From an uncultured Acidobacteriota bacterium (lineage in GTDB: Bacteria; Acidobacteriota; UBA4820; DSQY01): a stretch of DNA of 64,000 bases. This document shows positions 25,045 through 62,604 of this stretch, piece after piece. Below the pieces are notes generated by a model that saw only the letters and a list, made by a program, of their open reading frames with translations, was not told the origin of the DNA and searched no databases. Position numbers and translations under genes: made by a program. Each line of letters opens with the position of its first letter. Position 1 is the first letter of the stretch. The stretch is taken from assembly GCA_963772255.1 (NCBI GenBank), contig CAVYWK010000024.1, positions 340,992 through 404,991 on the forward strand, in the 5' to 3' direction.

Positions 25045-25111
25045 CCCACCCGCTTTGAGCAGGCGTGCCATGCCTGCTGAAGCGGTGAATTGATCTGCAG
25101 TTTGATTCCAA

Positions 25112-25160
25112 GGGCGCGGGGCCTGTCTTTCTGAGACGAGGGCCCCGCGCTCTTTGTTTG
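25112..25160 (+). terminator. Conserved GGGCGCGGGGCC...GGCCCCGCGC terminator of G1
   Basis: 12-bp GC stem followed by tttgtttg. The same stem follows G2-G4 and G6-G9. Confidence 0.75.
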
Positions 25161-27392: not shown

Positions 27393-27459
27393 ACCCACCC
27401 ATCTAGGCGGGCGAGCAACGCCCGCTGAAGCGGTGCAGTGATCTGCGGTGTGATTCACA

Positions 27460-27502
27460 GGGCGCGGGGCCTAGTCTGCAAAGACGAGGCCCCGCGTTTT
27501 TT
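27460..27502 (+). terminator. Conserved-stem terminator of G2
   Basis: gggcgcggggcc...ggccccgcg + tttttt. Confidence 0.8.
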
Positions 27503-29976: not shown

Positions 29977-29995
29977 TCTGAAGTCTGATTCAAAA

Positions 29996-30050
29996 GGGCG
30001 CGGGGCCTAGTCTGCCAAAGACAAAAGGCCCCGCGCCCTCTTGCTTTTTG
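29996..30050 (+). terminator. Conserved-stem terminator of G3
   Basis: gggcgcggggcc...ggccccgcgccc followed by the T-rich tcttgctttttg. Confidence 0.75.
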
Positions 30051-32571: not shown

Positions 32572-32616
32572 GGGCGCGGGGCCTTTCTGCATGAGGGGCC
32601 CCGTGCCATTTATCTT
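32572..32616 (+). terminator. Conserved-stem terminator of G4
   Basis: gggcgcggggcc-tttctgcatgag-gggccccgtgcc followed by atttatctt. Confidence 0.65.
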
Positions 32617-36959: not shown

Positions 36960-37140
36960 ACCGCCTCCTTGACAGCCCGGGGCGGTGGTCTCAAAATAAG
37001 CACTTCGCTTCGGTCAGGTCTGGGACGGCGGATCACTGTCTCAGGCCATTTTTTTATGCTGGAATGCGGGGCACTCGCGGCGGGCGGTGTGGTCCCCGAG
37101 GGAATCGGATGGGTGCGTGGTGTCCATGGAGGAGTGGCGG

Positions 37141-40617: not shown

Positions 40618-40633
40618 ACGGCGAGTAATCTGA

Positions 40634-40714
40634 GCGGGTGAACGACCCGCCGGAACACGGGCGCGGGGTTCCTGCCATTTCCAGGCAGGGGCCCCGCGCT
40701 CTTCTACTTTTGTC
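40634..40714 (+). terminator. Dual-hairpin 3' element of G6 (small hairpin + conserved-stem terminator)
   Basis: gcgggt-gaacg-acccgc, then gggcgcgggg-ttcctgccatttccaggcagg-ggccccgcgc and a T-rich tail. Confidence 0.75.
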
Positions 40715-40734
40715 ATATACAATCTATTTATTGT

Positions 40735-40762
40735 TTGACTAGCGCTCCCGATCTCCCATAAT
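40735..40762 (+). promoter_or_regulatory. Putative sigma-70 promoter of G7 in an AT-rich patch
   Basis: TTGACT-N16-CATAAT. This implies a ~315-nt leader. The motif tgtttgact recurs upstream of G8 at 47107-47116. Confidence 0.45.
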
Positions 40763-41085
40763 GGCCGTGGGGGGGCGACATTCGAAGAATACGAAACCCT
40801 CATAAGATAAAGTCAGATTCTTGACAGCAAAGGTGGGCATGCCCCGTGCGTGCGCCGTGCATAGCGTTGAGGGGAGTTTAGGAAGCGGGAGAGTCCAGGT
40901 CAGGGGGAGTGCTCCGTCGGCCGCCATGGCAAGGGGAGTCCCAACGCAGTCGCGCCGGTTGAAGCCCCGTTGAGGGCATGCCAGGCGCGGCCGAAGAAGG
41001 AGGGGAGGTCGGCAACCAGGTCGCTGTGAGGGGTGGTGACACGAGGGATCACGAGGAAGAGGAACGTGGCATAAGGGGTTCGACC

Positions 41086-44000
41086 ATGAGATGGCGAAAT
41101 GTCCTGTTGGTGAGCCTGGTTCTGGCCTTGCTGGTGCTTCCGGCGTTCGGCGCTCAGCCCACGCGGAAGGCGCCCAAGACCGAAGTGTCCTATCCGGTGG
41201 CCGTGGCCTCCTCGCCGGCCTTCCGGGACCTTCCGGTGGACAACAAGGAAGTGGCAGTGGGGACGAGCCCCAATCGGATCATCCCCAACCCCCAACTGAA
41301 CAAGACGAACGCACCGGAGGCTCCCGAAGCCTTCGGGGTGGACGCCGCTCTGCAATACCGGCACGGGAACGCGCCGGCGCCGAGCCCCCTCATCAGCTTC
41401 GACGGTATCAACAACATCGCGGGCGTGGCGCCTCCGGACACCCAGGGCGACATCGGCCCCGACCACTATGTGCAGTGGGTCAACTCCCACATCGCCGCGT
41501 GGAGCATCAACCGCTCCACCTGGACGCCCACGCTGGTCCTGGGCCCGGTGGCGGGCAACACGATCTGGACCGCCCTGGGCGGTCAGTGCGCCTCGGACAA
41601 CTGGGGCGATCCCATCGTGCTGTGGGACCGCTTCAGGAACCGTTGGGTCATCAGCCAGTTCTCCCTCGGTCCGAGCGCCAACGGTCCCTCCAAGACGGCC
41701 ATCGCCGTGTCCAAGACCACCGACCCCACGGGGGCCTGGTGGCTCTACTGCTTCGACTACAGCCCCACCACCATGAACGACTATCCCAAGTTCGGGGTGT
41801 GGCCGGACGGGTACTACTACACCTGCAACCAGTTCCTGAACTTCGCCTCCTGGGGCGGTGCAGGCCTGTGCGTGTTCGAAGCGGACAAGATGATCACGGG
41901 CGACCCCACGGCCCGCCAGCTCAAGATCGACCTGGGCGCCGTGAGCCTCAACTACGGCGGCATCCTGCCCGCGCACTTCGAGGGCACGGACGACCCGCCG
42001 GCCGGCTCGGGGTACTTCGTTGAGGTGGACGACAGCGCCTGGATGAGCCCGCCCTTGGCGCAGGACTCCATCTCGCTGTGGAAGGCCCATGTCAACTGGA
42101 CCGCCGGCACCTTCACCGTGGGGGTGGGCGGACTGCCCGACCTGACGATCCCGGTGACGGACTTCACGCCCCTGTGCACGAGCACCCGCTCCTGCATCCC
42201 GCAGCCGCCGGGCGGTGAGAACCTGGACGCCATCGGCGACCGGGGTATGTACCGCTGCCAGTACCGCAACTTCGGCAGCTACGAGGCCATGACTTTCAAC
42301 CTCACGGTGAATGCGGGAAGCGGAGTCGCCGGCATCCGGTGGTTTGAACTCCGCAAGGACAGCGGGCACCCGGACTGGTACCTGTACCAGGAGGGGACCT
42401 ACGCCCCCACCGACGGAATCAACCGCTGGATGGGCAGCGCGGCCCAGGACCACATGGGCGACCTGTGCGTCGGCTACAGCATGTCCAGCAGCTCACTCAA
42501 GCCGTCCATCGGGTACGCGGGCCGCCTGGCGGGCGACCCGGTGGGGACCCTGCCGCAGTCCGAAGTGGTGCTCCACAACGGGCCAGGCGTGCAGAACACG
42601 GGTTACAGCCGCTGGGGCGACTACAGCACCATGAGCGTTGACCCGGTGGACGACTGCACCTTCTGGTACACGCAGGAGTATGTGGAAGCCACGGGCGGCT
42701 GGGACTGGGCCACCCGCATCGGCGCCTTCAAGTTCGGCTCCTGCTCCGTCGGTCCCACGGGAACGCTGAGCGGCACGGTGACCGACTCGGCAACGACCCT
42801 CCCCATCGCCGGCGCCACGGTGAGCGCCACCAACGGCACCATCACCGTGAACGCCACCACGGGGGGAACCGGCGCCTACAGCATGACCCTGCCCATCACG
42901 CCGCCCACCTACTCGGTGACGGCGAGCGCCTTTGGATACACGCCCGCCAATGTGGCCGGCATCGCCATCACCACCGGCGGCACCACCACCCAGGACTTCG
43001 CGCTCGGCGGGGCCACCAGCTACCTGGTTTCCGGTACGGTGACGGATGTGAATACCGGCTGGGGCCTCTACGCCAACGTGACCATCACGGCCTCCGGCTG
43101 GGCGGGCACCACGATCCAGACCAACCCCACCACGGGCGCCTACGCCATCAGCCTCGTGGGCGGGGCCACCTACAACTTCAGCGTGGCCTCCATCGTCCCC
43201 GGGTACACCACGGGTGCGGCGACCGTGGGTCCGCTCGGGGCTCCGGCGACCCAGAACTTCCCGCTGGACGTCAACAGCTGCGGTGCGCCGGGATACACGA
43301 TGTCCTTCAGTGAGAACTTCGATGGCGTAACCGCCCCGGCCCTCCCTGCGGGTTGGGCAGCTGTCAACGCCTCGGGTGGTGGCGCCCTCTGGGTTACGAG
43401 CACAACCACTCCCTACTCGGCGCCCAACGACGCCTTCGTGGACAACCCCGCCGCCGTCAGTGACAAGCGACTCGATACGCCTGCCATCGCCGTCACCAGC
43501 GCTGCGGCGCAAGCGATCTTCCGGAACTCCTACGATCTGGAGAGCGGATACGATGGCGGCGTGCTGGAGATCTCGATTGGAGGAGGGGCCTTCACGGACA
43601 TCCTCACTGCGGGCGGGTCCTTCGCCGGCGGTGGATACAACGGCACCATCAGCGGTAGCTTCAGCAACCCCCTCGCAGGGCGATCAGCCTGGACGGGCAA
43701 CTCGGGTGGTTACATCCTGACGACCGTGAACCTGCCGGCCTCGGCCAACGGCCAAAACGTGGTCCTGCGCTTCCGGATGGGAAGCGACACCAGCGTCTCA
43801 AAGCCGGGCTGGCGCATCGACAACCTGACAACGGGGCAGTGCGCTCCCCCACCGGGCGGGCTCATCGTGGGCTTCGTGAAGGACGCCGCGACGACGAACG
43901 CCATTTCCGGGGCTACGGTGGTGAACGCCACCACGGCCTTCACCGGTTCTTCCAACGCCCAAGGCTTCTACGCCGTGTACGCCGCGGTCGGGGCCAACAA

Positions 44001-46817
44001 CCTCACGGCCAGCAAGCCCACCTACCAGGACGGCACGGCGACGGTGACGGGCGTGGCTCACGCTACGGTCCAACGCGACTTCAACCTCTCCAGCGCCCTG
44101 CAGTACACCCTCTCGGGCACGGTGACGGACGCCACCACGGGCTGGCCGCTCTACGCGACGCTGGTGTTCAGCGCCTCCGGCTTGCCCACTGTGACCGCCT
44201 ACACCAACCCGGTGACGGGCGCCTACAGCGCCACGATTTACGGCGGCACGGTCTACAACGTGGCCGGCACGGCCTGGGCGCCGGGTTATACACCCCTGGC
44301 CACCACCGTGGGACCCATCGCGGGCAACACGACGCAGAACTACACCATGGCGGCCGATCTGACGATCCTGCGCGGCTCCGGGCTACACCTCCGCCAACGT
44401 GTTCCAGAACTTCGACGGCGTCACACCGCCCGCCCTTCCTGCCAACTGGGCGATGGTTCGCACGGGCGGTGCGAGCACCTCCACGGCCTGGGCATCGAGG
44501 GTCGGAACGCGCTATCCTTCAGGCTTACCCCGCTTACAGCGGGCCCAACGTGGTGTTCTTCAACTCCTTCTCCGTGAGTACGGACAACAGCGCCCGCCTT
44601 TACTACACCGTGCCTGTTAATCTCACCGTGGTTGCTCCCTCGCTCTCGTTCTACATGTTCCATGACACCGGCTATTCATCGAGCAACGACCGGGTGCAGG
44701 TCGAGGTTTCCGTGGACGGCGGTGCCAACTGGCAACCTGTGGGCAGCCCCATCTCCAGGTACCTGGCGGCCAGCAACGCCTGGTCCCAGCACACCGTCGC
44801 CCTCACCGGATTCACCGGGCCCAACACCTCCGTCCTGGTGGGCATCAACGCCATCAGCGCATACGGGAACGACATCCACCTGGACAGCATTCTGATTGGC
44901 AATCCAGGTTGCTCGGCCCCGGCTGGCGGCGGTCTCATCGTGGGCAACGTCTACGACGCCAACACGAACATGGCCCTCAACGGCGCCACGGTGAACAACA
45001 CGACCACGGGCCGGTCGGCCCTCGCGGCCGCTACGCCGGATCCGAACCTGGACGACGCGTTCTACTGCCTGTACGGGCCCGACGGCGCGAACCTCATGAA
45101 CGCCATGGCCCCCCTGTACAGCACGGACAACGAGACCGCCACGGTGCCCCACTACGGCGCCGTCAGGCGGGACTTCCACCTCCCCGTGGGGCGCCTGTCC
45201 GCCACGCCCACGAGCCTGGAATTCACCATGCCAACCAACACCACGGGCCAGCAGACCTTCGACCTGAGCAACATCGGCGGCGGCATCCTGGGCTTCACCC
45301 TCACCGAGTCCGCCGGTCACCCCGCGGCCCCGCAGTGGGACCTCTACGCCGCCAAGGACGCCAAGCCCGAAGGCTGGGCCAAGGGCAACATGCTCACGGC
45401 GTTCAAGAAGAAGCCTGCCGAGTCCCCACGCCTGAGCAGCTCCGCCGACGCCCGTCGCATCGTGCTCGAGTCAGGCAAGAGCGACGGCAGCGACTTCGAT
45501 GCTGCCCCAGCTCCCGCCGACGCATGGCCGCCGTCGGGTCCGATCCAGCTCTACCTCGACGACAACTCCTACGACAACGCGCTCGGTCTGACGGCTGGCG
45601 GATCGTTCGTGTGGTTCAACCGGTTCACCCCGAACCCCGCGGACTTCCCCTTCGTTCTGGACCAGATCAGCCTGATCTTCTTCACCGCCGTTCCCGTGGG
45701 GAGCGACATGGAGATCCTGGTGTACTCCGACCCCGACGGCGATCCCACCAACGGCGCCACGTTCCTCTACTCGCAGAACGTGACGGTGCAGACCAGCGAC
45801 GCCGCCACCTGGAACAATTACGCCCTGACGACCCCAGTTCCGTGCAACGGCCCCGGCGACGTCCTTATCGCCGTGGTGAACCGTGGAGCGACAGGCGTAG
45901 GCGCAGTTCCCCGGCCGCCATGGATCAGACGACCTCGGCCGGCCGCTCCTGGGTCGGGTTATACACCGGTGCCGTTCCCGACCCGCCGACCTTCCCGGCC
46001 GATGACACATTCACTACCGTGGACAGCATCGGCTTCCCCGGGAACTGGATGATCCGGGCCAGCGGCGGCGCCGGGGATGTGCCCTGGCTCGACGAAAACC
46101 CGAAGACCGGTCCGCTCAATCCCGGCGAGACCCAGACCATCACGGTGGACTACAACTCCGCGGGCCTGGCTGCCGCCGAGTACCTGGCCACCATCAACTG
46201 CGCCCAGGACACCCCCTACGGCCCCGTCCCGGTCCCCGTCACCCTGAACGTCTGGGCGCCGGTGGCCGCCGGCGCACCTCTCACGGGCGTGGCCCCCTTG
46301 GCGGTCTCCTTCACGGGGACCATCACCAACCCCGTGGGCGCCTTCACCTACGACTGGAACTTCGGCGACGGCAGCCCGCATTCCACGGCCCAGAACCCGA
46401 CCCACACCTACAACATCGGAGGCACCTTCACGGTGACCTTCACGCGCCACGGACTCCTTCGGCCACACGGCCTCCGACAACCACCTCTCGGTGACCGTGA
46501 CGGCGCCGGGGGCCCCGCTGGTCTACAACTTCTACGACGACGCGGGCCGCTCGCGGCTGTGCGTGAACCGCCTCACGGGGTTCTACGTGTGGGAGATCCT
46601 CACGGGTCCGGGCGCGGGTAATACCTACACGGGCACGGCGAACATCGTGAACGGCGGCACGAAGATCTACAGCAAGACCAGTGACCCGAACTACCTGAAC
46701 TGCACCTACGACCCGATCAAGAAGAGGGCGTCGGGGTACTACAACGTCGCGGCCGGGCCCTATTACAGCCGGCTGACGGACCTGAACACCACCAACAACC
46801 CGCCCGGCTGCTACTGA
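41086..46817 (+). CDS. G7: giant secreted protein (shared N-domain + CarboxypepD_reg-like repeats + 2 jelly-roll domains + PKD + conserved CTD); at least 4 frame disruptions
   Basis: Signal peptide MRWRNVLLVSLVLALLVLPAFGA. Coding sense passes through ORFs 40978..44577, 44399..44620, 43839..46052, 44909..46621 and 46491..46817. The last shift is an extra c at about 46443 relative to G8 (ttcacgcgcc vs ttcagcgcc). Confidence 0.7.
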
Positions 46818-46832
46818 GCGGTGGGTGACAAC

Positions 46833-46902
46833 GGCGGGTGAATAATCCGCCGGGAACACGGGCGCGGGGTTCCTGCCACGGCAGGGGCCCCGCGCCTTCA
46901 TT
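46833..46902 (+). terminator. Dual-hairpin 3' element of G7
   Basis: ggcgg-gtgaataat-ccgcc, then gggcgcgggg-ttcctgccacggcagg-ggccccgcgcc. Confidence 0.75.
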
Positions 46903-47570
46903 AGTGAGGAGTGAGGAGTGAAAAGTTAAAAGTTAAAGAGCAAAAGGAAAAGGGAAAAGGCGAAGTGAGGGCCAAGCTCCTGGCGGGAAGCCAACACCTT
47001 CTGGGCGGGTGGGGCGAATGTGAAGAGGGCGCCTTCGTCTCGGCAGTGAAGCGGAGGTAGGGCCGGGGGCTCCACGAGCAGGTCTATTGCAATCACAATG
47101 CATAACTTGTTTGACTCAAGGGCAGGAGACTGCGAAAGTATCTTCCGTGGGCGAGAAATTGAGATCTTGAAGCCATGCTGGCGCTGTGAGGGATCAGCGC
47201 TTGTTGTGTTTCCGCTGATGGAAAGACCGGCTGGACCCCGAGAGGGGTTTGTGTTTGGCTTTTGTGCCAGAGAGAGCCGCTCGCAAGCCCAACCGCAAGG
47301 GGACATGCCGCTTACGGGGGTTGGGGCGTAGGACGCATCGGCCCGAACCCGTGGTTCAGGAGAGTCTCATTCGGCGGGAGGGAAATGAAGCTCCAGGAGT
47401 GACTACGAGCCCGTCGAGAAGCACCTGGGCTCGGACGATTTCGGTGGGGCCGCGGGGCCTGAAGGCGCCGCAACCCGCGAAAAGGAGGCAAGCTCGGCAA
47501 CCAGGTCGCTGTGAGGGATGGTGACGCGAGGGATCACGAGGAAGAGGAATGTGTCATAAGGGGTCTGACT

Positions 47571-50500
47571 ATGAGATGGCGTTCTGTACTGTTGGTTAGC
47601 GTGATTCTGGCACTGCTGGTTCTGCCGGCTTTCGGCGCCCAGCCCAGTCGGAAGGCGCCCAAGGCCGAAGTGTCCTATCCGGTGGCCGTGGCCTCGTCTC
47701 CGGCCTTCCGCGACCTTCCGGTGGACAACACGGAAGTCACCGTGGGGACCAGTCCCAATCGGGTCATCCCCAATCCCCAGCTCAACAAGACGGGCGCGAC
47801 GAGCGCACCGGAGGCGCCCTTCGACGTGGACCAGGTGCTGCAGTACAAGCACGGCAACGCGCCTGCCCCTAGCCCTCTAATCAGCTTCGACGGTATCAAC
47901 AACCTCGCGGGCGTGGCCCCTCCGGACACCCAGGGCGACATCGGCCCCGATCACTACGTTCAGTGGGTCAATCTCCACCTCGCCGCGTGGAGCATCAACC
48001 GCTCCACATGGACACCCACGCTTGTACTGGGTCCCGTGGCGGCGAATAGCATCTGGACCTCCCTGGGCGGTGATTGCGCAACGACCAACGACGGCGATCC
48101 CATCGTGCTGTGGGACCGCTTCCGTAGCCGCTGGGTCATCAGCCAGTTCGCCCTGCCCAATTACCCAAGCGGTCCCTCCAAGACGTCCATCGCCGTGTCC
48201 AAGACCGCGGACCCCACGGGGGCGTGGTGGCTCTACTGCTACGACTACAGCCCTACCACGATGAACGACTACCCCAAGTTTGGCGTCTGGCCGGACGGGT
48301 ATTACTACACCTGCAACCAGTTCCTCAACTTCTCCTCCTGGGGCGGTGCCGGCCTCGTGGTGTTCGAGGCCGACAAGATGATCAACGGCGACCCCACGGC
48401 CCGCCAGCTCAAGATCGACCTGGGCGCCGTAAGCCTGAACTATGGAGGCGTCCTGCCGGCGCACTTCGAGGGTACCAATAACCCGCCCGCGGGCTCGGGG
48501 TACTTCGTGGAGGTGGACGACAGCAGCTGGATGAGCCCGCCCTTGGCGCAGGACTCCATCTCGCTGTGGAAGGCCCACGTGGACTGGACCACTCCCAGCT
48601 TCACAGTGGGCGTGGGCGGACTGCCCGATCTGACCATCCCCGTGACGAACTTCACCCCCCTGTGCATCGGGAACCGGAACTGCATCCCGCAGCCTGGGAC
48701 CACCCAGAGGGTGGACGCCATCGCGGACCGGGGCATGTATCGGCTCCAGTACCGGAACTTCGGCACCTACGAGGCCATGGTCTTCAACATCACGGTGGAC
48801 AGCGGCTCGGCGGTGGCCGGGGTCCGGTGGTTTGAGCTCCGCAAGGACAGCGGGCACCCGGACTGGTACCTTTACCAGGAGGGGACCTACGCCCCCGCCG
48901 ACGGCAAACACCGCTGGATGGGCAGCGCGGCCCAGGACCACATGGGCGACCTGTGCATCGGTTACAGCCTCTCCGACGGCACGGCCACCTATCCCTCCGT
49001 GGGCTACGCGGGCCGTCTGGCGGGCGATCCGCTCGGCACTCTGCCCCAGTCCGAAGTGATTCTCCACGCCGGCGCGGCGTCGCAGACGGGCGTGAACCGC
49101 TGGGGCGACTACAGCAGCATGAGCATCGATCCCGTGGACGACTGCACCTTCTGGTACACGCAGGAATACTCCACGGGCGGATGGGATTGGGCCACGCGCA
49201 TCGGCGCGTTCAAGTTCGGCACGTGCTCCATCGGGCCCACGGGGACGCTGAGCGGCACGGTGGTGGATGCGGGCTCGCTTGCCCCCATCTCCGGCGCCAC
49301 GGTGACGGCAGTGGGTACGGTCAGGGCTTCGGCCACCACGGGTCCCACGGGCGCTTACACCCTCACGCTCCCCGTGGACACCTACAACGTGACGGGCGCG
49401 GCCTTCGGCTTCAACCCGGTGACGGTGAACGGCATCGCCATCACCAACGGCGTCACCACGACCCAGAACTTCTCCCTCGCGGCCGCGGGTAGCCACACCA
49501 TCACGGTGACAACCAATGATGGCACTACGACCTGGCCCCTCTACTCTCGAATCGACATGACGGGCGACATGGGCTATCCGGGCGGCACCTTCTGGACCGA
49601 CCCGCTCACAGGCACCTGGGGGCCCTTCCCCTTCGTGGACGGCGTGACCTACCACGGCGTCGTGACGCCGCTCTATCCCGGCTACGGTACGGGCTCGTTC
49701 ACGACCCCGCCTCTCAGCAACAACTTCAGCGCCGGATATGGTTTCGGTGGTGACGGCAGCTGCACCGCTCCGGGGTACGTGCTCTCGGGCGGGCTCAGCC
49801 AGGATTTCGAAGTGATGCCTCCCCCGGGCTGGACGGTTGTGAATAACGTCGGCGGTGGTCTCATCTGGAACTCGGACACCTCTTACGGCGATACCAACTA
49901 CACGGGCGGCACGGGTCACGCCGCCGACGTGAACAGCGATGCCAACTCGGGTGTCCCCTACGACACCGAGCTTCGCACGCCTGCCATGAACTTCACGACC
50001 TTCTCCGGTACGACCCTGACCTACAGGCTGAACTACCAGGACATCACGGCGTATGACGCCCTGGATGTGAACCTGAGCACGGACGGCGGCGCCACCTGGC
50101 CCGTGGTCCTCCGCCACTTCACCACCGACCAGGGCAGCCTCTACGCGGGACCGGGCGTCTCCGATTCCATCGACCTCTCCGCCTATGCCGCCCAGACCAA
50201 CGTCATGATCCGCTGGCGGTACTACACCTCCGAATCCAGTCCCTGGGATTGGTACGCTCAGATCGATCAGGTTCGCATCGGAACACCCGGCTGCACGGCC
50301 CCCGCCACCGGCGGTATCATCGTCGGCCAGGTGAACGACGCCAACACGGCCGGCCCCGTCACGGGCGCCACCGTGACCAACACGACCACTACCACGGTCG
50401 TCACGGCCCAGGCCACGCCCGATCCCGCCGTGGGCGACGCCTTCTACTGCGCCTTCGCCAACACGGGCAACGTCCTGAACGCCGCCAAGGCGCTCTACGG

Positions 50501-52419
50501 CACGGACACCACCACGGCGGGAGCCTTCCCGGCGAGCCGCATCCTCGCGCACGACTTCGCGCTCACGTCCGGACACCTCACGGCGACGCCCGCGAGCCTC
50601 GAATACGCCACGCCCACCAACGCGACGGGCTTCCAGACCCTGACGCTGAACAACATCGGTGCCGCGCCCGTGAATTGGACCGTCTCGGAGGCCATGGGTC
50701 ATCTGGCCAAGCCGAGCGGGAACCTCTTCGCGTGCCTGGCACCCCAGGCCGGGTCCAGCAAGATCGACCGGATGAACATCCTGGCGGCCGAGGAGGCCAG
50801 GGAACGGATTCGAGGGTCGGGAGGACCGTCCCAAGGACGAGAAGATCGCACCCCCGAGCAAGGACAAGACCGAAAAGCCTGAAGCACCCCACCAGTCCGC
50901 AGATGCCCCTCGGTCTTCCGGCATTGCGGATCATGCCCCGCCGGCCGCGGCACCCTACGCCGCGGGGGATGTCCTGGGAAGCTGGCCCAGCGGTCTCAGC
51001 ATGGCGTGGGGCATCGCCTTCGACGGCGCCGACAATACCGTGTGGGTCGGTTCCCCCGCTCCCTCCTGGGGCGGTAACGACACCATGTACGAGTACACGC
51101 CGGCGGGCACCGCGACGGGCCGCACCTATCCCTTCAGCTGGGCGCACTCGAACGGTCCCGGGGACTTTGCCTACGACTGGAACACCGGGAACATCTGGGT
51201 CATGAACATCAACACCGGGGTGAGCAACTGCATCTTCGAGGTGAACCCGGCCACCGGCCCCACGGGCGCTTCCATCTGCCCGGGCGGCGGTACGGGCTTC
51301 GCCACCTCCGAGCGCGGCATCGCCTACGACCCCGTCACGGATACCTTCTATGCGGGTGGCTGGAACACGCTGGCCATCACCCACTTCGACGCCAGCGGGA
51401 CCATCCTCGGCACGACCTCCGTGGGCCTCGAGATCTCTGGCCTCGCCTACAACCCCACCACCCAGCACCTCTTTGCCCAGACCAATTCGAGCCCGAACCT
51501 CATCTACGTGCTGGACGCGGCCAACAACTACGCGGTTCTTGGCTCGTTCGCGGTGGCCGGATTCGGAGACTACTCCGGAGCGGGCCTGGAGATCGACTGC
51601 AACGGGCACCTGTGGGCGGCGAACCAGGTCGATGCGAACATCTACGAGATCGACTCGGGCGAGGCCGCCTCGCTGTGCGGTATCCCCTGGCTGGACGAGA
51701 CACCCCTGAGCGGGACGGTGGCCGCCGGCGGCAGCCAGGATGTGACCGTGAGCTACGACTCCACGGGCATGGCGACGGGCATCTACCTCGCCACGCTGGT
51801 CTTCGGCAACGACACGCCTTACGGCTCGCTCAATGTTCCGGTCACCATGAACGTGTGGGAACCGGTGGCCGCCGGCGCGCCTCTCACGGGCCAAGCTCCG
51901 GTACCCGTGGCCTTCACCGGGACCATCACCAACCCCCTGGGAGCCTATACCTACGACTGGGATTTCGGGGACGGCAGCCCGCATTCCACGGCCCAGAACC
52001 CGACCCACACCTACAACATCGGAGGCACCTTCACGGTGACCTTCAGCGCCACGGACTCCTTCGGCCACACGGCCTCCGACAGCCACCTCTCGGTGGTCAT
52101 CACGGCGCCTGCGGCCCCGGTGGTCTACAACTTCTACGACGACGCGGGCCGCTCGCGGCTGTGCGTGAACCGGATCACCGGTGCCTACAGCTGGGAGATC
52201 CTCACGGGACCGGGCGCGGGTAATACCTACACGGGCACGGCGAACATCGTGAACGGCGGCACGAAGATCTACAGCAAGACCAGTGACCCGAACTACCTGA
52301 ACTGCACCTACGACCCGATCAAGAAGAGGGCGTCGGGGTACTACAACGTCGCGGCCGGGCCCTATTACAGCCGGCTGACGGACCTGAACACCACCAACAA
52401 CCCGCCCGGCTGCTACTAG
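47571..52419 (+). CDS. G8: giant secreted protein (shared N-domain + Ig/CarboxypepD_reg-like + jelly-roll + propeller-like + PKD + conserved CTD); 1 frame disruption near 50795
   Basis: Signal peptide MRWRSVLLVSVILALLVLPAFGA. ORF 47511..50882 is followed by the frame of ORF 51001..52419, which is open from 50776 and encodes a linker (PGNGFEGREDRPKDEKIAPPSKDKTEKPEAPHQ...). Alternative: two separate genes. Confidence 0.7.
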
Positions 52420-52434
52420 GCGGAGGGTGACGAC

Positions 52435-52510
52435 GGCGGGTGAGTGACCCGCCGGGAACACGGGGCGCGGGGTTCCTGCCACGGGCAGGGGCCCCGCGCC
52501 TTTTCCTTTC
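52435..52510 (+). terminator. Dual-hairpin 3' element of G8
   Basis: ggcggg-tgagtga-cccgcc, then ggggcgcgggg-ttcctgccacgggcagg-ggccccgcgcc + tttt. Confidence 0.8.
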
Positions 52511-52797
52511 TGGCGCGCCGAGGGGCCCCAATTCCGCTATGGGAGCAAGTGAAAGCGGCGAAAAAAGGAAGGGCCACTGCGTTTCAAGCCGCCGTGCACC
52601 TATCAAGGGATTGGGGGTGCCTCCGAGCCTGCTGAGGAGGCTCCAAGGGTGGGGTGGGGTCCCCCCGGCGGGCTTTGCCCGCGGGGCGGGGAGGGAATGG
52701 CCCTCCCCGCCATGGAGGCCAAGCGGTTTAATCCCATAGCCTCCCAGTTTCCGAAGGTAAGACAATTCCATCGCTGAATTTGGGTGGGCCCCTTCCA

Positions 52798-52827
52798 TTG
52801 ACAATCGGACGCCCTCCTCTCTATGCT
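52798..52827 (+). promoter_or_regulatory. Putative sigma-70 promoter of G9
   Basis: TTGACA-N18-TATGCT, about 80 nt upstream of the ATG. Confidence 0.35.
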
Positions 52828-52907
52828 TGGCCGAATCGGGCTCTTGAGGCGCCCGGTCGGGTCAGCGGGTACGCCTGTCAAGAGGACCCGCACGAGGGAG
52901 GGGTGTC

Positions 52908-55900
52908 ATGGGAACGCGGCGAGTGGTGTGCATGTGTCTGTTGTTGATTTCCGTCCTTTTCTCGTTGGGGATGTTCGCGCAAGAACTTCCGCAGCAGGAG
53001 ATAGAGGTTCAGGGGGCGGTCCTCAATTCTGGCAAGGAGCCTGTGCAGGTCCTGGTCGTGTTGAACGATCCCCCGGCGGCGGTGGTATACGCCGATGTGA
53101 AATCGAAGCTAGGTTCCTCGGAGGCCCTGGCGTTGAGCCAGGCCAGGTCGCAGGTGGAGAGGCTCCGGCAGGCTCAGGGCCCCCTGGCCGCCCTCATCGA
53201 AGGTGCGCCTTTCAACGGCAGAGAGATCTACCGTGTCCAGAAGGTCCTGAACGGGATCTCCATCATGGTGGATCCTGGCCAGATCGAGGCCCTGAAGAAG
53301 CTGCCCGGTGTGAAGGCCGTCCACATCGTGGAACCCGAATATCCCTCCCTCTCCACGAGCGTCCCCTTCATCGGCGCCCAACACGTCTGGAATGGCCTCC
53401 CAGGCGGCATCGGGCCCTACAAGGGCGACAACATCCGCATCGGCATCATCGACTCGGGCATCGATTACAACCACGCGGACTTCGGCGGCACGGGCCTCCT
53501 CGCCGACTACCAGGCGAACGATCGGGTCAATCCCAACGCTTTCTACCCCAACGCCAAGGTCGTGGGCGGATGGGACTTTGCGGGCGACGCCTACACGGGC
53601 GGCAACGTCCCGGTGCCCGATGCCAATCCCACCGACTGCCTCGGCCACGGGTCCCACGTGGCGGGCATCGCGGCGGGCTACGGTGTCAACGCCGACGGTA
53701 CCACTTACGCGGGAGCTTACGACGACACGACCAACTTCTCCTCATTCCGCATCGGCCCCGGCGTGGCTCCCAGGGCCCAGCTATACTCCCTCCGTGTTTT
53801 TGGGTGCGGCGGGTCCACGGGCCTGACGGTTCTGGGCATCGAGTGGGCCATGGATCCGAACGGCGACAACGACATGTCAGACCACCTCGACGTCATCAAC
53901 ATGTCCCTCGGTTCCCAATTCGGCAGTCCCGCGAACACCTCGGCCATGGCGTCTGACAACGCCGCCCTGGTGGGCGTCATCGTGGTGGCATCCGCGGGGA
54001 ACAGCGGGGATACCTACTTCATCACCGGCGCCCCGGGCGTCTCCGGACGGACCATCAGCACGGCGTCGTGCATGGACAGCGGTATCTTGGCCGAGGCCCA
54101 GGTGATCCAAGGCGCCAACACTTACGTCGCCACCCCCGCAGCGTTCGGCGGCGTCCTCACTGCTCCTCTGACGGGAGCCATCGAGAACGCCAATCCCATC
54201 CAGGCCTGCTCAGCCCTCACAGGGTTCACGGCCGGTCGCATCGCGATCATCGACCGGGGCACTTGCAGCTTTGTCATCAAGGTCAAGGCGGCCCAGGATG
54301 CGGGCGCCATCGCGGTCATCGTGGCGAACAACGCCGCCGGAACTATCGTTATGGGGGGCACCGACCCCACCATCACCATCCCCTCGGTCATGGTTTCCAA
54401 TTCGGACGGCGCTCTCCTGAAGGCCCTCGCGGCGGGTACCTCAGTGACCATCAACCCCGTCTTCGGCGGGGACATCCTAAGCTCCTTCTCGTCGAGGGGC
54501 CCCAGCCGTGGCTCCATGACCCGGCTCAAGCCCGACATCACGGCGCCCGGCGATCAGATCATTTCGGTAGAGACGGGCATGACGTGCACATCGGCGGGCG
54601 CGGGGTGCATCTTCCCCAATGCCACCGGCTACAATCCCGGGAACCTTCCCGGAAACCTCTCGGGCACCTCCATGGCCGCCCCCCACATGGCGGGTGAGAT
54701 GGCCCTCCTCAAGCAGCAGCATCCCGGCTGGTCCGTGGAGGAGCTCAAATCCGCGGCAATGAACGGCGCCCTCCACAACGTGACCACGACGCCCAGCGCG
54801 GGCGGTCTGACCTACGGCGCGGGCCGCGTCGGCGCGGGCCGCGTGGACCCCGTCATCTCGGCCAAGAATGGATGCGTGGCCTTCAACGACGAGCCCGGCG
54901 GGCTCGTGAGCGTCTCCTTCGACGCCTCGGTGACGGCGCCCACGACGCAGACCAAGAATGTCCGCGTGATGAACAACGGGACGGAATACGCCAACTACGA
55001 CATTGCCCTCGTCACCACCTTGGATGCGCCCGGTATCACCTTCACCGAGCCCTATGTCAGCATGGGCCTCGGAACCAATGCCTCGATCCTGATCCCCGTC
55101 ACCATGACCGCCAACCCCGCCCAGATGAAGCACACCCGAGAGGCGACGGTATCGAACGCGCAGACCGGTCCGGCCCCTCTGGCGAACAGCTACTACCGCC
55201 ACTGGCTCACCGAAGAGTCTGCCTACCTCGTCCTCAGCCAGGGCGGCCAGCCCAAAATCCGCGTGCCGATCTACATGACGGCCCGACCGGCCTCGGTCAT
55301 GCAGGGCCCGGCCTCTATCGTCACGGGCGGTGCGCCCACGGGCTCCACCACCCTCGCCCTGACGGGGACCGGGGTCTGCACGGGCACGCCCGGAGTGGGG
55401 ACCTGCGCGGGCACCTTCCCGAACGATGAGGTCTCCCTCGTGACGCCTTTCGAACTGCAGGTGGTCCATCCCCGAGACCCATCGATTCCCGACTACTTGG
55501 ATATCCAGTACGCCGGAGTCGCCTACAACACCGCCAACAACATCGTGATGTTTGGAGTATCAACCTGGGGGCCGTGGGCCACTCCGACCGATGTGTCCTT
55601 CAGCATCGACATCGACAACAACCTCGACGGGGTCTGGGATCGTACCCTCTTCAACAGCAACCCGGGGACCATGGCCGGCTACCTCTTCGGCACGTCGGGC
55701 GCCTACGCGCAGGATTCCTTCCTCTGCGCCTACTTCAATATCGCCACGAGCGGAGTGGGCACCACGCAATACCTCAATGCGGTCAGTGCCAATACGGCAG
55801 ATACGGCTCTCTTCAAGAACAACGTGATGTTCCTGACGGCGAGCCCCGCCTCGTTGGGAATGGCAGGTACCAGTTTCAGGTACCGCATCATCGTCCGGCA

Positions 55901-57452
55901 GGGCACCAGCCCGTTGCTCGGCTCCGCCGTGGAAACCATTTCGGGACCGTTCTTCTGGGACCGCGCCGCCCAGGGACTTAACTTCGGTGGGACCTATCTC
56001 GGGAACGACCTCAACGGCGCGACTATCCCTGTCACCTGGAATACAGCGAACTTGGCCACGAACGGTTCGCTGGGAGCCCTCCTCCTGCACCACCACAACG
56101 CCCCCGGAAACACCGCCCAGGTCATCCCCCTCCAGGGCACGGCCTCGGCGGACCTTGCCCTCACCAAGACGGCCCTTCCCGCGTCGCCAACCTTTGGTCA
56201 GAACGTGGTCTTTACCCTCACGGTGACCAACAATGGCGGCTCCGCGGCCTCTGGCGTCACCGCCAGCGACCCGCTCCCCGCTGGACTTACCTTCGTTTCC
56301 GATGACGGTGCGGGCGCCTACAACAGCGCCACGGGCCAGTGGACCATCGGTGCCCTGGCAAGCGGCGCCGCGGCGACCCTACACATCACTTGCACCGTGA
56401 GTGGGCAGGGGACCATCGTTAACACGGCCAAGGTCTTCGCAACCTCTCCCCTCGACCCGGTCCCGGCCAACAACACCGCGACGGCGCAGTTCAGCGTCGG
56501 CCGCAGCGCCGACCTGGGAGTCACAAAGACGGGCGACGCCACGGTCTACAGCGGCGGCAGCATCACCTATACCATCACCATGACCAACGCTGGCCCCGAC
56601 GACGCCCTCCACCCCTGGATCCAGGATGACGTTCCGGCCAACACGACGTTCGTTTCGGCCACGGCGAGCGCCGGGGCGGTCCTTTCGATGCCGGGCGTCG
56701 GCGGCACGGGGACGGTGGTTGCGAGATGGCCCGCCAACGCCCTGCCCGCCGGGGGGACCTTCTCGCTGACCCTCGTGGTCAACGTGCCCGCCAACGTGCA
56801 CAACGGCACGCCCATCACCAACACGGCGACGGTGGCGTCCCTCGTACCGGACGGCAATGCGGCCAACAACACGGCGACCTTTGTGACGAACGTCCTCTGC
56901 CCGACCTTCTCCATCCTGCCGGCGGTCCTCCCGCCCTCGGTGACTGGTCTTCCCTATAGCCAGCAGCTAACTACGCCGGGAACGGCAAGTGCGTGCACGT
57001 TCGCCGTGACCGCTGGGACCCTGCCCCCGGGTATCACCGTGTCGGCCGCCGGTCTCATTTCCGGGATACCGACAAGCACTCTCAACTACAACTTCACGGT
57101 GACGGCCACCGATGCCGCGGGTTGCACGAGCACCCAGGCCTACACCTTCGCTTCCGCCAACCTCTTCTTCCTCGACGACGCAGGGCGCACGAGGCTGTGC
57201 GTGAATGCCAGGACGGGGGCTTACATCTACCAGATCCTGCTCGGGCCCCACGCGGGCGAGACTTACACCGGAACCGCCAACATCGTGAACGGGGGGACCA
57301 AGATCTACAGCAAGCCGGGCGCCGCGGACTACCTGAACTTTACCTACGACCCCATTCGCAAGCGGGCCGCCGGGTACTTCCAGAGCCCCGTGGGAGGGTA
57401 TTCGACCCTGACCGACTACAACACGGCCAACAACGCGGGTGGATGCACCTGA
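52908..57452 (+). CDS. G9: secreted S8 subtilisin-family peptidase with I9 propeptide, PA-domain insert, DUF11-type repeats, He_PIG and conserved CTD, intact
   Basis: 1514-aa uninterrupted ORF. Signal peptide MGTRRVVCMCLLLISVLFSLGMFA. Triad contexts IGIIDSGIDYNH, CLGHGSHVAGIAAG and SGTSMAAPHMAGE. PA insert (IAIIDRGTCSFVIKVKAAQDAGAIAVIV). Two ADLxxTKT... DUF11-like repeats. Confidence 0.9.
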   Translation: MGTRRVVCMCLLLISVLFSLGMFAQELPQQEIEVQGAVLNSGKEPVQVLVVLNDPPAAVVYADVKSKLGSSEALALSQARSQVERLRQAQGPLAALIEGAPFNGREIYRVQKVLNGISIMVDPGQIEALKKLPGVKAVHIVEPEYPSLSTSVPFIGAQHVWNGLPGGIGPYKGDNIRIGIIDSGIDYNHADFGGTGLLADYQANDRVNPNAFYPNAKVVGGWDFAGDAYTGGNVPVPDANPTDCLGHGSHVAGIAAGYGVNADGTTYAGAYDDTTNFSSFRIGPGVAPRAQLYSLRVFGCGGSTGLTVLGIEWAMDPNGDNDMSDHLDVINMSLGSQFGSPANTSAMASDNAALVGVIVVASAGNSGDTYFITGAPGVSGRTISTASCMDSGILAEAQVIQGANTYVATPAAFGGVLTAPLTGAIENANPIQACSALTGFTAGRIAIIDRGTCSFVIKVKAAQDAGAIAVIVANNAAGTIVMGGTDPTITIPSVMVSNSDGALLKALAAGTSVTINPVFGGDILSSFSSRGPSRGSMTRLKPDITAPGDQIISVETGMTCTSAGAGCIFPNATGYNPGNLPGNLSGTSMAAPHMAGEMALLKQQHPGWSVEELKSAAMNGALHNVTTTPSAGGLTYGAGRVGAGRVDPVISAKNGCVAFNDEPGGLVSVSFDASVTAPTTQTKNVRVMNNGTEYANYDIALVTTLDAPGITFTEPYVSMGLGTNASILIPVTMTANPAQMKHTREATVSNAQTGPAPLANSYYRHWLTEESAYLVLSQGGQPKIRVPIYMTARPASVMQGPASIVTGGAPTGSTTLALTGTGVCTGTPGVGTCAGTFPNDEVSLVTPFELQVVHPRDPSIPDYLDIQYAGVAYNTANNIVMFGVSTWGPWATPTDVSFSIDIDNNLDGVWDRTLFNSNPGTMAGYLFGTSGAYAQDSFLCAYFNIATSGVGTTQYLNAVSANTADTALFKNNVMFLTASPASLGMAGTSFRYRIIVRQGTSPLLGSAVETISGPFFWDRAAQGLNFGGTYLGNDLNGATIPVTWNTANLATNGSLGALLLHHHNAPGNTAQVIPLQGTASADLALTKTALPASPTFGQNVVFTLTVTNNGGSAASGVTASDPLPAGLTFVSDDGAGAYNSATGQWTIGALASGAAATLHITCTVSGQGTIVNTAKVFATSPLDPVPANNTATAQFSVGRSADLGVTKTGDATVYSGGSITYTITMTNAGPDDALHPWIQDDVPANTTFVSATASAGAVLSMPGVGGTGTVVARWPANALPAGGTFSLTLVVNVPANVHNGTPITNTATVASLVPDGNAANNTATFVTNVLCPTFSILPAVLPPSVTGLPYSQQLTTPGTASACTFAVTAGTLPPGITVSAAGLISGIPTSTLNYNFTVTATDAAGCTSTQAYTFASANLFFLDDAGRTRLCVNARTGAYIYQILLGPHAGETYTGTANIVNGGTKIYSKPGAADYLNFTYDPIRKRAAGYFQSPVGGYSTLTDYNTANNAGGCT

Positions 57453-57467
57453 TCGGCTGGTGACGAC

Positions 57468-57539
57468 GGCGGGTGAGTGACCCGCCGGGAACAGGGGCGC
57501 GGGGTTCCTGCCACGGGCAGGGGCCCCGCGCCTTTTTTT
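57468..57539 (+). terminator. Dual-hairpin 3' element of G9 (near-identical to that of G8)
   Basis: ggcggg-tgagtga-cccgcc, then ggggcgcgggg-ttcctgccacgggcagg-ggccccgcgcc + ttttttt. Confidence 0.85.
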
Positions 57540-57744
57540 GTGAAGAGTGAAAAGTAAGAAGTGAAAAGGGGAAAAGAAAGGCAAAGGAGAGAAACAGTGA
57601 GTGAGATGCGAGGAGTGAGGATGGGTGATCCGCACTCGGTGACTTCCGATTTGCCGATTGGGGCAAATGGCCCAGCGTTCTGGAGCTTTCCCGATTCATC
57701 GGTCCAGGCGCAAAGAACCCAGGAATAGCAAGGGTTTCATCTTG

Positions 57745-57773
57745 TTGACACCCCTAAAGGCCCGTGGTAGGCT
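57745..57773 (+). promoter_or_regulatory. Putative sigma-70 promoter of the nuo operon
   Basis: TTGACA-N17-TAGGCT, 60 nt upstream of nuoA. Confidence 0.4.
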
Positions 57774-57832
57774 TCCCTTCTGACTTTCGCAGGTCCAGGG
57801 GGGACCACACAGGCTCAAGGTCGAGGGTTCCA

Positions 57833-58204
57833 ATGCAGAACACCTACCTGCCGATTCTGGTGATGGTCATCACCGCGTTCTGTATCGCCGTGGGGTTGGT
57901 GCTGGCCTCCTGGCTGCTGGGGTTCGTCCGCAAGTCCAGGACCCTGCTCTCCCCCTACGAGTGCGGCCTCGACCCCATGGACGAACCGTTCAAGCGCGTG
58001 TCCATCCGATACTATGTGGTGGCCCTTCTTTTCCTCCTGTTCGATGTGGAAACCCTTTTCCTCTTTCCCGTGGCCGCCGTTTACCGGGAGCGGGTCGCCG
58101 CGGGGTGGGGACTCTTCGTCTACGGGGAGCTGCTCCTTTTCCTGGCGATCCTCCTCGTGGGCTACGTGTACGCCCTCAAGAAAGGCGCCCTGCGATGGGA
58201 ATAG
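57833..58204 (+). CDS. nuoA: NADH-quinone oxidoreductase subunit A
   Basis: ORF 57764..58204 trimmed to the ATG at 57833. Three TM helices and YECG...FDVE motifs. Confidence 0.9.
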
Positions 58205-59332: not shown

Positions 59333-59333
59333 A

Positions 59334-59485
59334 CCACAGAGGCACAGAGGCACCGAGGAACCAAAAAGATTTGGATGGCGATTGATGACCGATGAAGCAG
59401 GGCGAACAGACCAAGAACCTGGAATGTTCTTTCTTGTCCTTTCTAATCAGGATTTATCTTTCTCTGTGTCTCTGTGTCTCTGTGG
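59334..59485. repeat. MITE-like element, copy 1 (nuoC-nuoD spacer)
   Basis: Terminal inverted repeats ccacagaggcacagagg... and ...ctctgtgtctctgtgtctctgtgg around a lower-GC core with an internal aagaac...gttctt hairpin. Homologous to 62605-62795. Confidence 0.7.
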
Positions 59486-59509
59486 TGAATATTTCTTAGG
59501 GTTGTCTTG

Positions 59510-61297: not shown

Positions 61298-62594
<1,297 letters not shown>

Positions 62595-62604
62595 AAGACT
62601 ATTC

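What the first reader, a model, noticed from the sequence alone, without database searches (positions are those of the whole stretch)
40634..57539. 3' UTR dual-hairpin element is more conserved than the coding sequence it follows
**Shared terminator stem.** Eight of the nine CTD genes are followed by a hairpin with the same stem (GGGCGCGGGGCC ... GGCCCCGCGCC) and variable loops. Positions: 25112, 27460, 29996, 32572, 40659, 46860, 52462 and 57494.

**Additional upstream hairpin.** In G6-G9 the terminator is preceded by a second small hairpin, GGCGGG-TGAGTGA-CCCGCC. G1-G3 have an analogous GGCGGGC...GCCCGC hairpin.

**Key comparison.** Between G8 and G9 the ~75-nt element (52429-52504 versus 57462-57536) differs by a single indel. 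The adjacent CTD coding sequences of the same two genes are only about two-thirds identical by eye.

**Interpretation.** A non-coding element conserved better than its gene implies function beyond simple termination, or very recent conversion. Possible roles include an RNA stability, localisation or processing signal, a 3'-UTR-derived sRNA, or a recombination site that moves the terminal cassette.
Basis: seen in the sequence. Interest (0 to 1): 0.6.

Follow-up and report, generated by a model that had tools for sequence, protein, structure and literature searches.

The report
Shared terminator hairpins behind paralogous genes
The conserved double hairpin behind these secreted-protein genes is an ordinary transcription terminator that was copied along with the genes' shared tail domain and recently patched from one copy to another, so it is real but not a new kind of RNA element.

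Summary
**Observation: confirmed.** Eight of nine tandem genes that share a ~95-aa C-terminal domain (CTD) end in a hairpin with the stem GGGCGCGGGG…CCCCGCGC followed by a T-run. Most also carry a small upstream hairpin. G8 and G9 are 95% identical in the 3' UTR but 68% identical in the CTD coding sequence.

**The stem is specific to CTD genes.**
- It occurs nowhere else in this genome.
- In five related genomes of two other genera, 36 of 39 genome-wide sites lie just behind a CTD gene.

**This does not indicate a special RNA function.**
- Terminator stems behind orthologous GroEL, SecDF, LpxC and HtrA genes are conserved just as deeply across the same genera, with free loops.
- Metagenomic orthologues of G6–G9 (about 91–93% identical) differ at 2% of paired UTR positions and at 22% of unpaired ones. 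Third codon positions differ at 13–18%, so only base pairing is constrained.
- In that related lineage G8 and G9 differ at 10 of 29 unpaired positions. The near-identity in this window is therefore a lineage-specific gene-conversion patch.

**Verdict.** These are paralogous Rho-independent terminators inherited with the CTD module and homogenised by conversion. The finding is ordinary and of low interest. No transcript data could be obtained.

The parts
25050..25108 (+). G1 upstream hairpins (CCGCTTTGAGCAGGC..GCCTGCTGAAGCGG and GAATTGATC..GATTC)
   Evidence: Folds. The stem differs from G2/G3 by a compensatory G-C to A-T change.
25110..25154 (+). G1 terminator hairpin, GGGCGCGGGGCC..GGCCCCGCGC followed by TCTTTGTTTG
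27406..27451 (+). G2 upstream hairpins (GGCGGGCG-AGCAA-CGCCCGC and a second small one)
27459..27500 (+). G2 terminator hairpin followed by TTTTTT
29931..29969 (+). G3 upstream hairpin; here it lies inside the read-through tail of the ORF (stop at 29976)
29995..30038 (+). G3 terminator hairpin, GGGCGCGGGGCC..GGCCCCGCGCCC
32573..32607 (+). G4 terminator hairpin with one G.U pair; a weak hairpin precedes it at 32547-32572
37017..37047 (+). G5 terminator with an unrelated stem (GGTCTGGGACGG..CTGTCTCAGGCC) followed by T7; this is the one CTD gene without the shared stem
40629..40654 (+). G6 upstream hairpin, GCGGGT-GAACG-ACCCGC
40659..40701 (+). G6 terminator hairpin: 18 pairs, loop ATTTCCA
46832..46852 (+). 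G7 upstream hairpin, CGGCGGGT-GAATA-ATCCGCCG (one G.U pair)
46860..46897 (+). G7 terminator hairpin; poor T-run (CTTCATTAG)
52434..52454 (+). G8 upstream hairpin, CGGCGGGT-GAGTG-ACCCGCCG
52462..52502 (+). G8 terminator hairpin: 19 pairs, then TTCCTTTCT
57467..57487 (+). G9 upstream hairpin, identical to that of G8
57493..57535 (+). G9 terminator hairpin: 20 pairs, then TTTTGTG
57460..57536 (+). Inferred conversion patch in G9, copied from a G8-type 3' UTR. It matches 52427-52504 apart from one C indel.
   Evidence: The metagenomic G9 orthologue (L332) keeps a different linker, hairpin-1 loop and terminator loop.
57165..57452 (+). G9 CTD coding segment. The homologous segments in the other genes run from 24736, 27087, 29620, 32253, 36672, 40330, 46530 and 52132 to their stops.

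Best explanation
The hairpins are Rho-independent (intrinsic) transcription terminators of nine separately transcribed paralogous genes.

**Origin.** The terminator travelled with the 3' module (CTD plus flank) each time a CTD gene was duplicated or given a new N-terminal cargo. All copies therefore descend from one ancestral GCGCGGGGC-loop-GCCCCGCGC terminator of this bacterial family.

**Why the stem persists.** Selection for a very stable G+C stem keeps the paired bases nearly frozen. Swapping a G-C pair for a C-G pair needs two transversions through a mismatch, so such swaps are slow. Loops, linkers and the T-tract drift at about the neutral rate.

**This genome's version.** The loop has been extended into an inner helix, and a second small hairpin sits upstream. 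That second hairpin may be an old tandem terminator or pause hairpin.

**The G8/G9 anomaly.** Short homologous gene-conversion tracts between the tandem copies keep re-mixing the 3' ends. One such tract recently overwrote most of the G9 3' UTR with the G8 version, which produced the 'UTR more conserved than CDS' signal.

**Shown:** structure, exclusivity to CTD genes, covariation, the split between paired and unpaired substitution rates, mosaic identity, and lineage-specificity of the G8=G9 identity.

**Inferred:** actual termination in vivo, and the direction of the conversion (G8 to G9).
For: **(1) Terminator anatomy.**
- Each hairpin starts 34-67 nt after the stop codon (19 nt in G3, where the ORF reads through), has a 15-20-bp G+C stem, and is followed by T-rich tails.
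- Promoter-like sites follow in the spacers.

**(2) Exclusive to CTD genes.**
- In G000 the paired 8-nt arms occur only in the cluster and in its variant contig C30.
- In G022, G018, G010, G016 and G023, 36 of 39 genome-wide sites lie within 90 nt downstream of a CTD hit.
- The GCGCGGG(G) stem follows 8 of 11, 4 of 4, 17 of 19 and 15 of 18 CTD genes in G010, G016, G018 and G022 respectively.

**(3) Co-inheritance.** Stem variants cluster on the CTD tree: 27 changes, against a mean of 62 and a minimum of 54 in 300 shuffles. The C20 gene shares the GGGA/TCCC variant with its same-genus counterparts in G003 and G004.

**(4) Structure is selected, loops are free.** 91% of cells are paired, 8 of 13 pairs show double changes, 0 of 500 shuffles reach the covariation score, and loops vary.

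**(5) Control.** Orthologous terminators of GroEL, SecDF, LpxC and HtrA keep identical stem cores across the same genera, with variable loops. The literature agrees: terminator stems are 90.7% invariant, against 63.5% for four-fold sites and 62.4% for loops (PMC5381666).

**(6) Orthologues from metagenomes** (L332, L353, L360). Paired UTR positions: 4 of 203 changed. Unpaired: 27 of 121. Third codon positions: 13.4-18.1%.

**(7) Conversion.**
- G7 and G8 are 100% identical over about 170 nt inside the CTD but differ on either side.
- G8 equals G9 only in the UTR.
- G7 resembles G9 only downstream of the terminator.
- G8 and G9 differ at 10 of 29 unpaired positions in the metagenomic lineage, against 4 of 30 in the window.
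- In the metagenomic lineage G6 and G7 share a linker (GAGTGACATCGGCGGG) that the window copies do not share.
Against: - Termination itself is therefore inferred.
- G7 has a poor T-run, and G4 and G6 have modest ones.
- The stem is retained among CTD paralogues that are only 24-53% identical in protein (median 45%). This is deep, and selection on stability alone may not fully account for it.
- The boundaries of the G8/G9 identical tract coincide roughly with the stop codon and the T-run. A mobile or functional unit would also predict that.
- The three metagenomic loci may come from different populations, so the argument about paralogues within one lineage is not airtight.
Confidence: 0.8

Rival explanations
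1. The dual hairpin is a functional RNA element beyond termination. It could be a stability or localisation signal, a 3'-UTR-derived small RNA, or the binding site of a factor that co-regulates the CTD gene family.
For: - The stem is exclusive to CTD genes in at least three genera.
- It is kept among paralogues with a median of 45% protein identity.
- The hairpin-plus-terminator architecture resembles 3'-UTR-derived sRNAs (own knowledge).
Against: - Unpaired positions change at 22% between orthologues, at or above the synonymous rate, so there is no conserved seed or loop.
- Loops range from tetraloops of many sequences to 13-21-nt inserts.
- The upstream hairpin is absent from most relatives, where the spacer is only 14-38 nt.
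- Housekeeping terminators are equally conserved.
- There is no Rfam match.
Confidence: 0.08
2. The hairpin is a DNA-level recombination signal. It would be a site-specific or hot-spot sequence, analogous to an attC site or to the conserved 3' repeat of pilin loci, that promotes exchange of the terminal CTD cassette.
For: - Identity among the 3' modules is mosaic, and there is a short converted tract ending at the hairpin.
- Perfectly conserved 2 x 10-nt arms could serve as homology anchors (inference).
Against: - There is no conserved core outside the paired arms and no attC-like R/L boxes (sequence inspection).
- Many CTD genes with the hairpin are solitary rather than in arrays.
- Ordinary RecA-type conversion between tandem paralogues explains the mosaics.
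- Housekeeping terminators show the same conservation without any cassette behaviour.
Confidence: 0.05
3. The element is a small mobile repeat (REP or MITE-like) that inserted behind these genes.
For: - The G8/G9 identical tract has sharp ends near the stop codon and the T-run.
- The genome does carry other dispersed repeats, including heptamer arrays and other hairpin arrays.
Against: - There are no copies behind unrelated genes in 3.5 Mb.
- Stem variants track the CTD phylogeny.
- Orthologous positions are occupied in related lineages.
- There are no terminal repeats or target duplications.
Confidence: 0.03

Closest known systems
Rho-independent (intrinsic) transcription terminators, with stems under purifying and compensatory selection (Safina, Mironov and Bazykin 2017, PMC5381666)
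   Same: - G+C-rich stem-loop directly after the stop codon, followed by a T-run.
- Stems are far more conserved than loops and synonymous sites.
- G.U intermediates and double (compensatory) changes occur, mostly at the outer pairs.
   Different: - One stem sequence is shared by a whole paralogous gene family and is essentially private to it across several genera.
- In this genome the loop has grown into a second helix (17-20 pairs in all) and a second hairpin precedes it.
Concerted evolution and gene conversion among tandem paralogues, for example the conserved 3' Sma/Cla repeat of Neisseria pilE/pilS loci (own knowledge, not checked here)
   Same: - A non-coding 3' segment is shared by all members of a variable gene family.
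- Identity among copies is mosaic.
   Different: - No evidence here that the segment is required for recombination.
- No silent cassettes.
- The conserved part is just the paired arms of a terminator.
REP/BIME extragenic palindromes
   Same: G+C-rich palindromes just downstream of stop codons that can stabilise mRNA 3' ends.
   Different: REPs are dispersed behind many unrelated genes in tens to hundreds of copies. This stem occurs only behind CTD genes.

Membership tests
Intrinsic (Rho-independent) terminator | Stable G+C-rich stem-loop on the coding strand shortly after the stop codon | tested here: met
   - Folds of -43 to -65 kcal/mol for the UTRs, z-scores -4.5 to -6.5.
- Hairpins start 34-67 nt after the stop, or 19 nt in G3.
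Intrinsic (Rho-independent) terminator | U/T-rich tract immediately 3' of the stem | tested here: met
   - G4, G5, G6, G8 and G9 are the top terminator-like sites in the consensus scan.
- G1-G3 have T-rich tails but loops longer than 8 nt, so the scan misses the full hairpin.
- G7 has a poor tract (CTTCATTAG).
- Most of about 70 homologous hairpins in relatives have T4-T9.
Intrinsic (Rho-independent) terminator | Evolutionary pattern: paired positions conserved or compensated, loops free | tested here: met
   - Orthologues: paired positions 2.0% changed, unpaired 22.3%.
- 8 of 13 pairs show double changes.
Intrinsic (Rho-independent) terminator | Transcripts end at the T-tract in vivo or in vitro | not testable with these tools
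REP / MITE-like dispersed repeat | Many copies behind unrelated genes or in unrelated intergenic regions | tested here: not met
   - The paired 8-nt arms occur only in the CTD cluster and C30 in G000.
- 36 of 39 sites in five relatives lie behind CTD genes.
Curated RNA family (Rfam 15) | Match to a covariance model | tested here: not met
   No match at E <= 1 in window 20000-64000, both strands.
3'-UTR-derived regulatory sRNA | Conserved single-stranded seed or loop sequence | tested here: not met
   - Linkers and loops differ at 22% between orthologues that are 91-93% identical overall.
- They are unrelated between the G1-G4 and G6-G9 groups.
Integron attC-type recombination site | Conserved R''/L''...L'/R' core boxes (GTTRRRY) flanking an imperfect palindrome, plus a nearby integrase | tested here: not met
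   No such boxes appear in alignments A1 and A3. No search for an integrase was run.

The most novel reading that the evidence does not exclude
The GCGCGGGGC/GCCCCGCGC duplex could be more than a stable stem. It would be a family-specific mark, read as RNA duplex or as DNA cruciform by a dedicated factor. That factor would co-ordinate expression, 3'-end processing or 3'-module exchange of the whole set of CTD-bearing secreted proteins. This would explain why over 60 paralogues in at least four genera keep exactly this stem.
Probability: 0.07. Interest if true: 0.6.

Novelty: new member of a known kind. Interest (0 to 1): 0.22.

Why it matters
The result is mainly a caution. A non-coding hairpin that looks more conserved than its gene, and is private to one gene family, can arise from three ordinary processes:
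- co-duplication of a terminator with a 3' domain module;
- slow evolution of G+C terminator stems;
- short gene-conversion tracts.

The finding also gives a practical marker. In this bacterial family the stem flags genes that carry an undescribed C-terminal domain. It further documents that terminator stems here are conserved across genera, which helps operon and 3'-end annotation in these uncultured genomes.

Tried and rejected
**Dead ends**
- Rfam scan of 44 kb at E <= 1: nothing.
- The search for related loci with a single CTD in genome contigs: 245 pattern hits, none confirmed. With NuoB it returned only distant phyla, so the organism's taxonomy stayed unknown.
- Most of the 119 metagenome hits to the 18-mer were chance matches. 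Only L332, L353 and L360 hold the full hairpin.
- The first literature search was unhelpful.
- The PDB fold search for the CTD gave no significant match.

**Ideas considered and rejected**
- Generic REP or terminator: rejected because the stem is exclusive to CTD genes.
- The heptamer repeats after the terminators as part of the element: rejected because they occur at about 90 sites genome-wide.
- Sequence-specific RNA motif: rejected because unpaired positions evolve at about the neutral rate.
- My own early impression that cross-genus conservation of the stem must mean special function: rejected after the housekeeping control.
Full report
**Setting.** The window is contig C24:340992-404991 of a 3.49-Mb, 65% G+C draft genome in 38 contigs.
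- Nine plus-strand genes, G1-G9, have stops at 25044, 27392, 29976, 32537, 36959, 40617, 46817, 52419 and 57452.
- Their N-terminal cargos differ: S8 subtilase with PA and DUF11 domains, MAM-like, PKD and CarboxypepD_reg domains.
- They share a He_PIG or PKD domain followed by a ~95-aa C-terminal domain (CTD) of the form FxDDxGRxxLCVN…NTxNNxGGC.
- The CTD has no Pfam or NCBIfam model.
- Two more CTD genes lie on contig C20.
- Contig C30 is a 96.6%-identical variant copy of window 52423-62622.

**Check of the observation.** The motif is present at all eight stated positions. It occurs 16 times with up to 1 mismatch, against 3.8 expected.
- Alignment A1 and the folds show a long hairpin behind G1-G4 and G6-G9, with outer arms GGGCGCGGGG/CCCCGCGC(C).
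- The loops are variable 13-21-nt inserts that form an inner helix. A T-rich tail follows, good in G2, G8 and G9 and poor in G7.
- A smaller hairpin lies upstream in G1-G3 and G6-G9.
- G5 has different hairpins and a T7 run.
- The consensus scan ranks the G4, G5, G6, G8 and G9 hairpins as the strongest terminator-like sites. It also finds promoter-like sites in several spacers, consistent with separate transcription units.
- G8 and G9 are 68.4% identical in the CTD coding sequence and 95.1% in the UTR. From 52429/57462 onward they differ by a single C.
- By my own arithmetic, at 30% divergence the chance of at most 1 difference in 77 sites is about 4 x 10^-11.
- The excess is specific to G9 against G7 and G8. 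In G1-G2 (91% CDS, 74% UTR) and G7-G8 (96.5%, 91.4%) the UTR is the less conserved part.

**Is it a generic repeat?** No.
- In the whole genome the paired 8-nt arms occur only behind the cluster's genes and on C30.
- One C20 gene carries the compensated variant GGGCGCGGGA-GCGA-TCCCGCGCCC.
- A census of perfect-stem terminators in G000 (283 sites) shows many other stems and no further use of this one.

**Relatives.** A tblastn-type search found the CTD in 19 of 61 genomes searched (18 relatives plus G000 itself), with up to 21 copies per genome, always at the extreme C-terminus.
- The pattern GCGCGGGGN{3,9}CCCCGCGC has 39 sites in the whole genomes G022, G018, G010, G016 and G023. Of these, 36 lie within 90 nt downstream of a CTD hit.
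- Among 119 CTD 3' flanks, the GCGCGGG(G) stem follows 8 of 11, 4 of 4, 17 of 19 and 15 of 18 genes in G010, G016, G018 and G022. It usually appears as a 9-10-bp stem with a tetraloop (TTCG, GAAA, CCCG, TCCG and others) and a T-run.
- Other lineages use other stems: G001, G002 and G005 have GGGGCGGCC-TTCG-GGCCGCCCC, and G025 and G046 differ again.
- The 57 genes with exact arms have a median CTD protein identity of 45%, with a minimum of 24%.
- Stem variants cluster on the CTD tree: 27 changes against 62 in shuffles.
- The helix shows 91% pairing and double changes at 8 of 13 pairs, mostly the outer ones.

**The control that changed my reading.** At this point the stem looked unusually conserved. 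I therefore took seven housekeeping genes of G000 that end in clear terminators and located their orthologues in up to ten relatives.
- GroEL: the GGGCGGCC core is conserved across genera.
- SecDF: the GGCCCGGG core is conserved in 10 of 10 genomes.
- LpxC: GAGGGCC is conserved in 7 of 8, at the same 31-32-nt distance from the stop.
- HtrA: GGCGCGCCA is conserved in 7 of 8.
- EF-G and PstS are partly conserved; CpoB is not.
- Loops vary in all of them.

Family-deep conservation of terminator stems is therefore the rule in this group. This agrees with published work on Bacillus cereus, where stems are 90.7% invariant, four-fold sites 63.5% and loops 62.4% (PMC5381666).

**Orthologue test.** One metagenome scan with the 18-mer GGGCGCGGGGTTCCTGCC returned three loci carrying the full hairpin.
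- L360 holds the orthologues of the G6 end and all of G7 (92% identity).
- L353 holds the G8 end and G9 (90.6%).
- L332 holds the G9 end and nuoA (93%).

Aligned UTRs differ at 4 of 203 paired positions (2.0%) and at 27 of 121 unpaired positions (22.3%). Third codon positions of G9 and G6 differ at 18.1% and 13.4%, and second positions at 3.8% and 1.4%. Only base pairing is constrained. Linkers, both loops and even the T-tract drift at about the synonymous rate. This argues against a seed, a loop-recognition site or any sequence-specific motif.

**Conversion.** Identity among G6-G9 is mosaic.
- G7 and G8 are identical over about 170 nt inside the CTD but differ before and after that stretch.
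- G8 equals G9 only in the UTR.
- G7 resembles G9 only downstream of the terminator.
- In the metagenomic lineage G8' and G9' differ at 10 of 29 unpaired positions. G9' has linker GAGTGACAAC, hairpin-1 loop GACCAAC and terminator loop CAG.
- G8 is nearly the same in both lineages. The window's G9 has therefore taken on the G8 state, which implies a G8-to-G9 conversion after the lineages split.
- Conversely, G6' and G7' share a linker in the metagenomic lineage that the window copies do not share.
- Between the two strain variants in this assembly, the UTR elements differ at 4-5 of about 170 nt. G9 third codon positions differ at 7.1% and other intergenic DNA at about 1%. The numbers are small and show no extra constraint.

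**Conclusion.**
- The elements are paralogous intrinsic terminators that co-duplicated with the CTD module.
- Their stems are kept by selection for stability.
- The G8/G9 anomaly is a recent short conversion tract.
- The upstream hairpin is specific to this lineage. Relatives have spacers of only 14-38 nt. Its role (tandem terminator, pause site or 3'-end protection) is open.

**Side results.**
- The CTD folds with high confidence (pLDDT 93.4) as a seven-strand all-beta domain with no significant PDB match.
- Heptamer repeats (RRGTRAR)n after several terminators are a genome-wide feature.
- Six of the nine genes are frame-disrupted in this assembly, while the G7 orthologue in L360 is one intact 1994-aa ORF.

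Noticed in passing
window 57165-57452 (G9); also 24736, 27087, 29620, 32253, 36672, 40330, 46530 and 52132 to their stops: The shared ~95-aa C-terminal domain (FxDDxGRxxLCVN…D.NT.NNP..C plus a short tail; invariant D4, C12, C94) appears to be undescribed.
- It has no Pfam or NCBIfam model.
- AlphaFold gives a confident seven-strand all-beta fold (pLDDT 93.4).
- There is no significant PDB match (best E = 0.08).
- It always sits at the extreme C-terminus of diverse secreted proteins, with 1-21 copies per genome in this family.
- It may be an undescribed sorting or anchoring domain.
   Followed up: partly
window 25165-25192, 27536-27563, 57545-57565, 20697-20738, 6290-6324; about 90 sites genome-wide: Tandem heptamer repeats (GAGTGAG / AAGTGAA, i.e. 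(RRGTRAR)n with 3-7 units) lie in intergenic DNA, often directly after stop codons or terminators. They also occur behind CTD terminators in G001, G002, G005 and G010, and on the opposite strand in G022. This is a generic genome feature reminiscent of cyanobacterial STRR heptamer repeats. Its function is unknown.
   Followed up: partly
window G1 (~24616-24686), G3 (28996-29366), G4 (31353-31702), G5 (33563-34149, 34461-34843), G7 (~44300, ~45950, ~46440), G8 (50249-51205); also 20854-22626: Six of the nine CTD genes, and apparently the radical-SAM gene upstream, change reading frame within the gene.
- G2, G6 and G9 are intact.
- The metagenomic orthologue of G7 (L360 2327-8311) is one intact 1994-aa ORF.
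- These are either consensus indel errors of the assembly or pseudogenes specific to this strain.
- No read-level check was possible.
   Followed up: partly
genome contig C30 vs window 52423-62622: C30 is a 96.6%-identical second copy of G9, nuoA and following genes, and it begins 4 nt after the G8 stop. This points to strain heterogeneity in the assembly, with the contig break falling at the repeated 3' element. Several other small contigs also duplicate parts of large ones (C4/C5/C23, C12/C20, C10/C24, C15/C24, C36/C22).
   Followed up: partly
relatives G004-G023; G000 contigs C33, C22, C24: Terminator stems behind orthologous GroEL, SecDF, LpxC and HtrA genes are identical across four genera, while their loops differ. 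LpxC also keeps the 31-32-nt distance from the stop. This is useful for 3'-end annotation in this group.
   Followed up: yes
window 25297-25326, 27675-27704, 36969-36997, 40735-40762, 52798-52827: Promoter-like sites lie in the spacers after the terminators: TGGACA-18-TAAATT before G2 and G3, TTGACA-17-CAAAAT before G6, TTGACT-16-CATAAT after the G6 terminator, and TTGACA-18-TATGCT before G9. Each CTD gene therefore looks like its own transcription unit.
   Followed up: no
genome contigs C11 (~17100-18100, 26530-26642) and C7 (117-3367): Two other arrays of repeated short hairpins occur outside the window: GGCGGGCA-ctct-TGCCCGCC at about 100-nt spacing, and GGCGGCC-caccgt-GGCCGCC at about 180-330-nt spacing.
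   Followed up: no
G046:C2:3900193-3909135 (locus L096): In a genome of another family of the same phylum, four tandem CTD genes end in a hairpin with the arms swapped: GGGCCCGCGC-cgc-GCGCGGGCCC. This could be coincidence, or an inverted derivative of the same palindrome.
   Followed up: no
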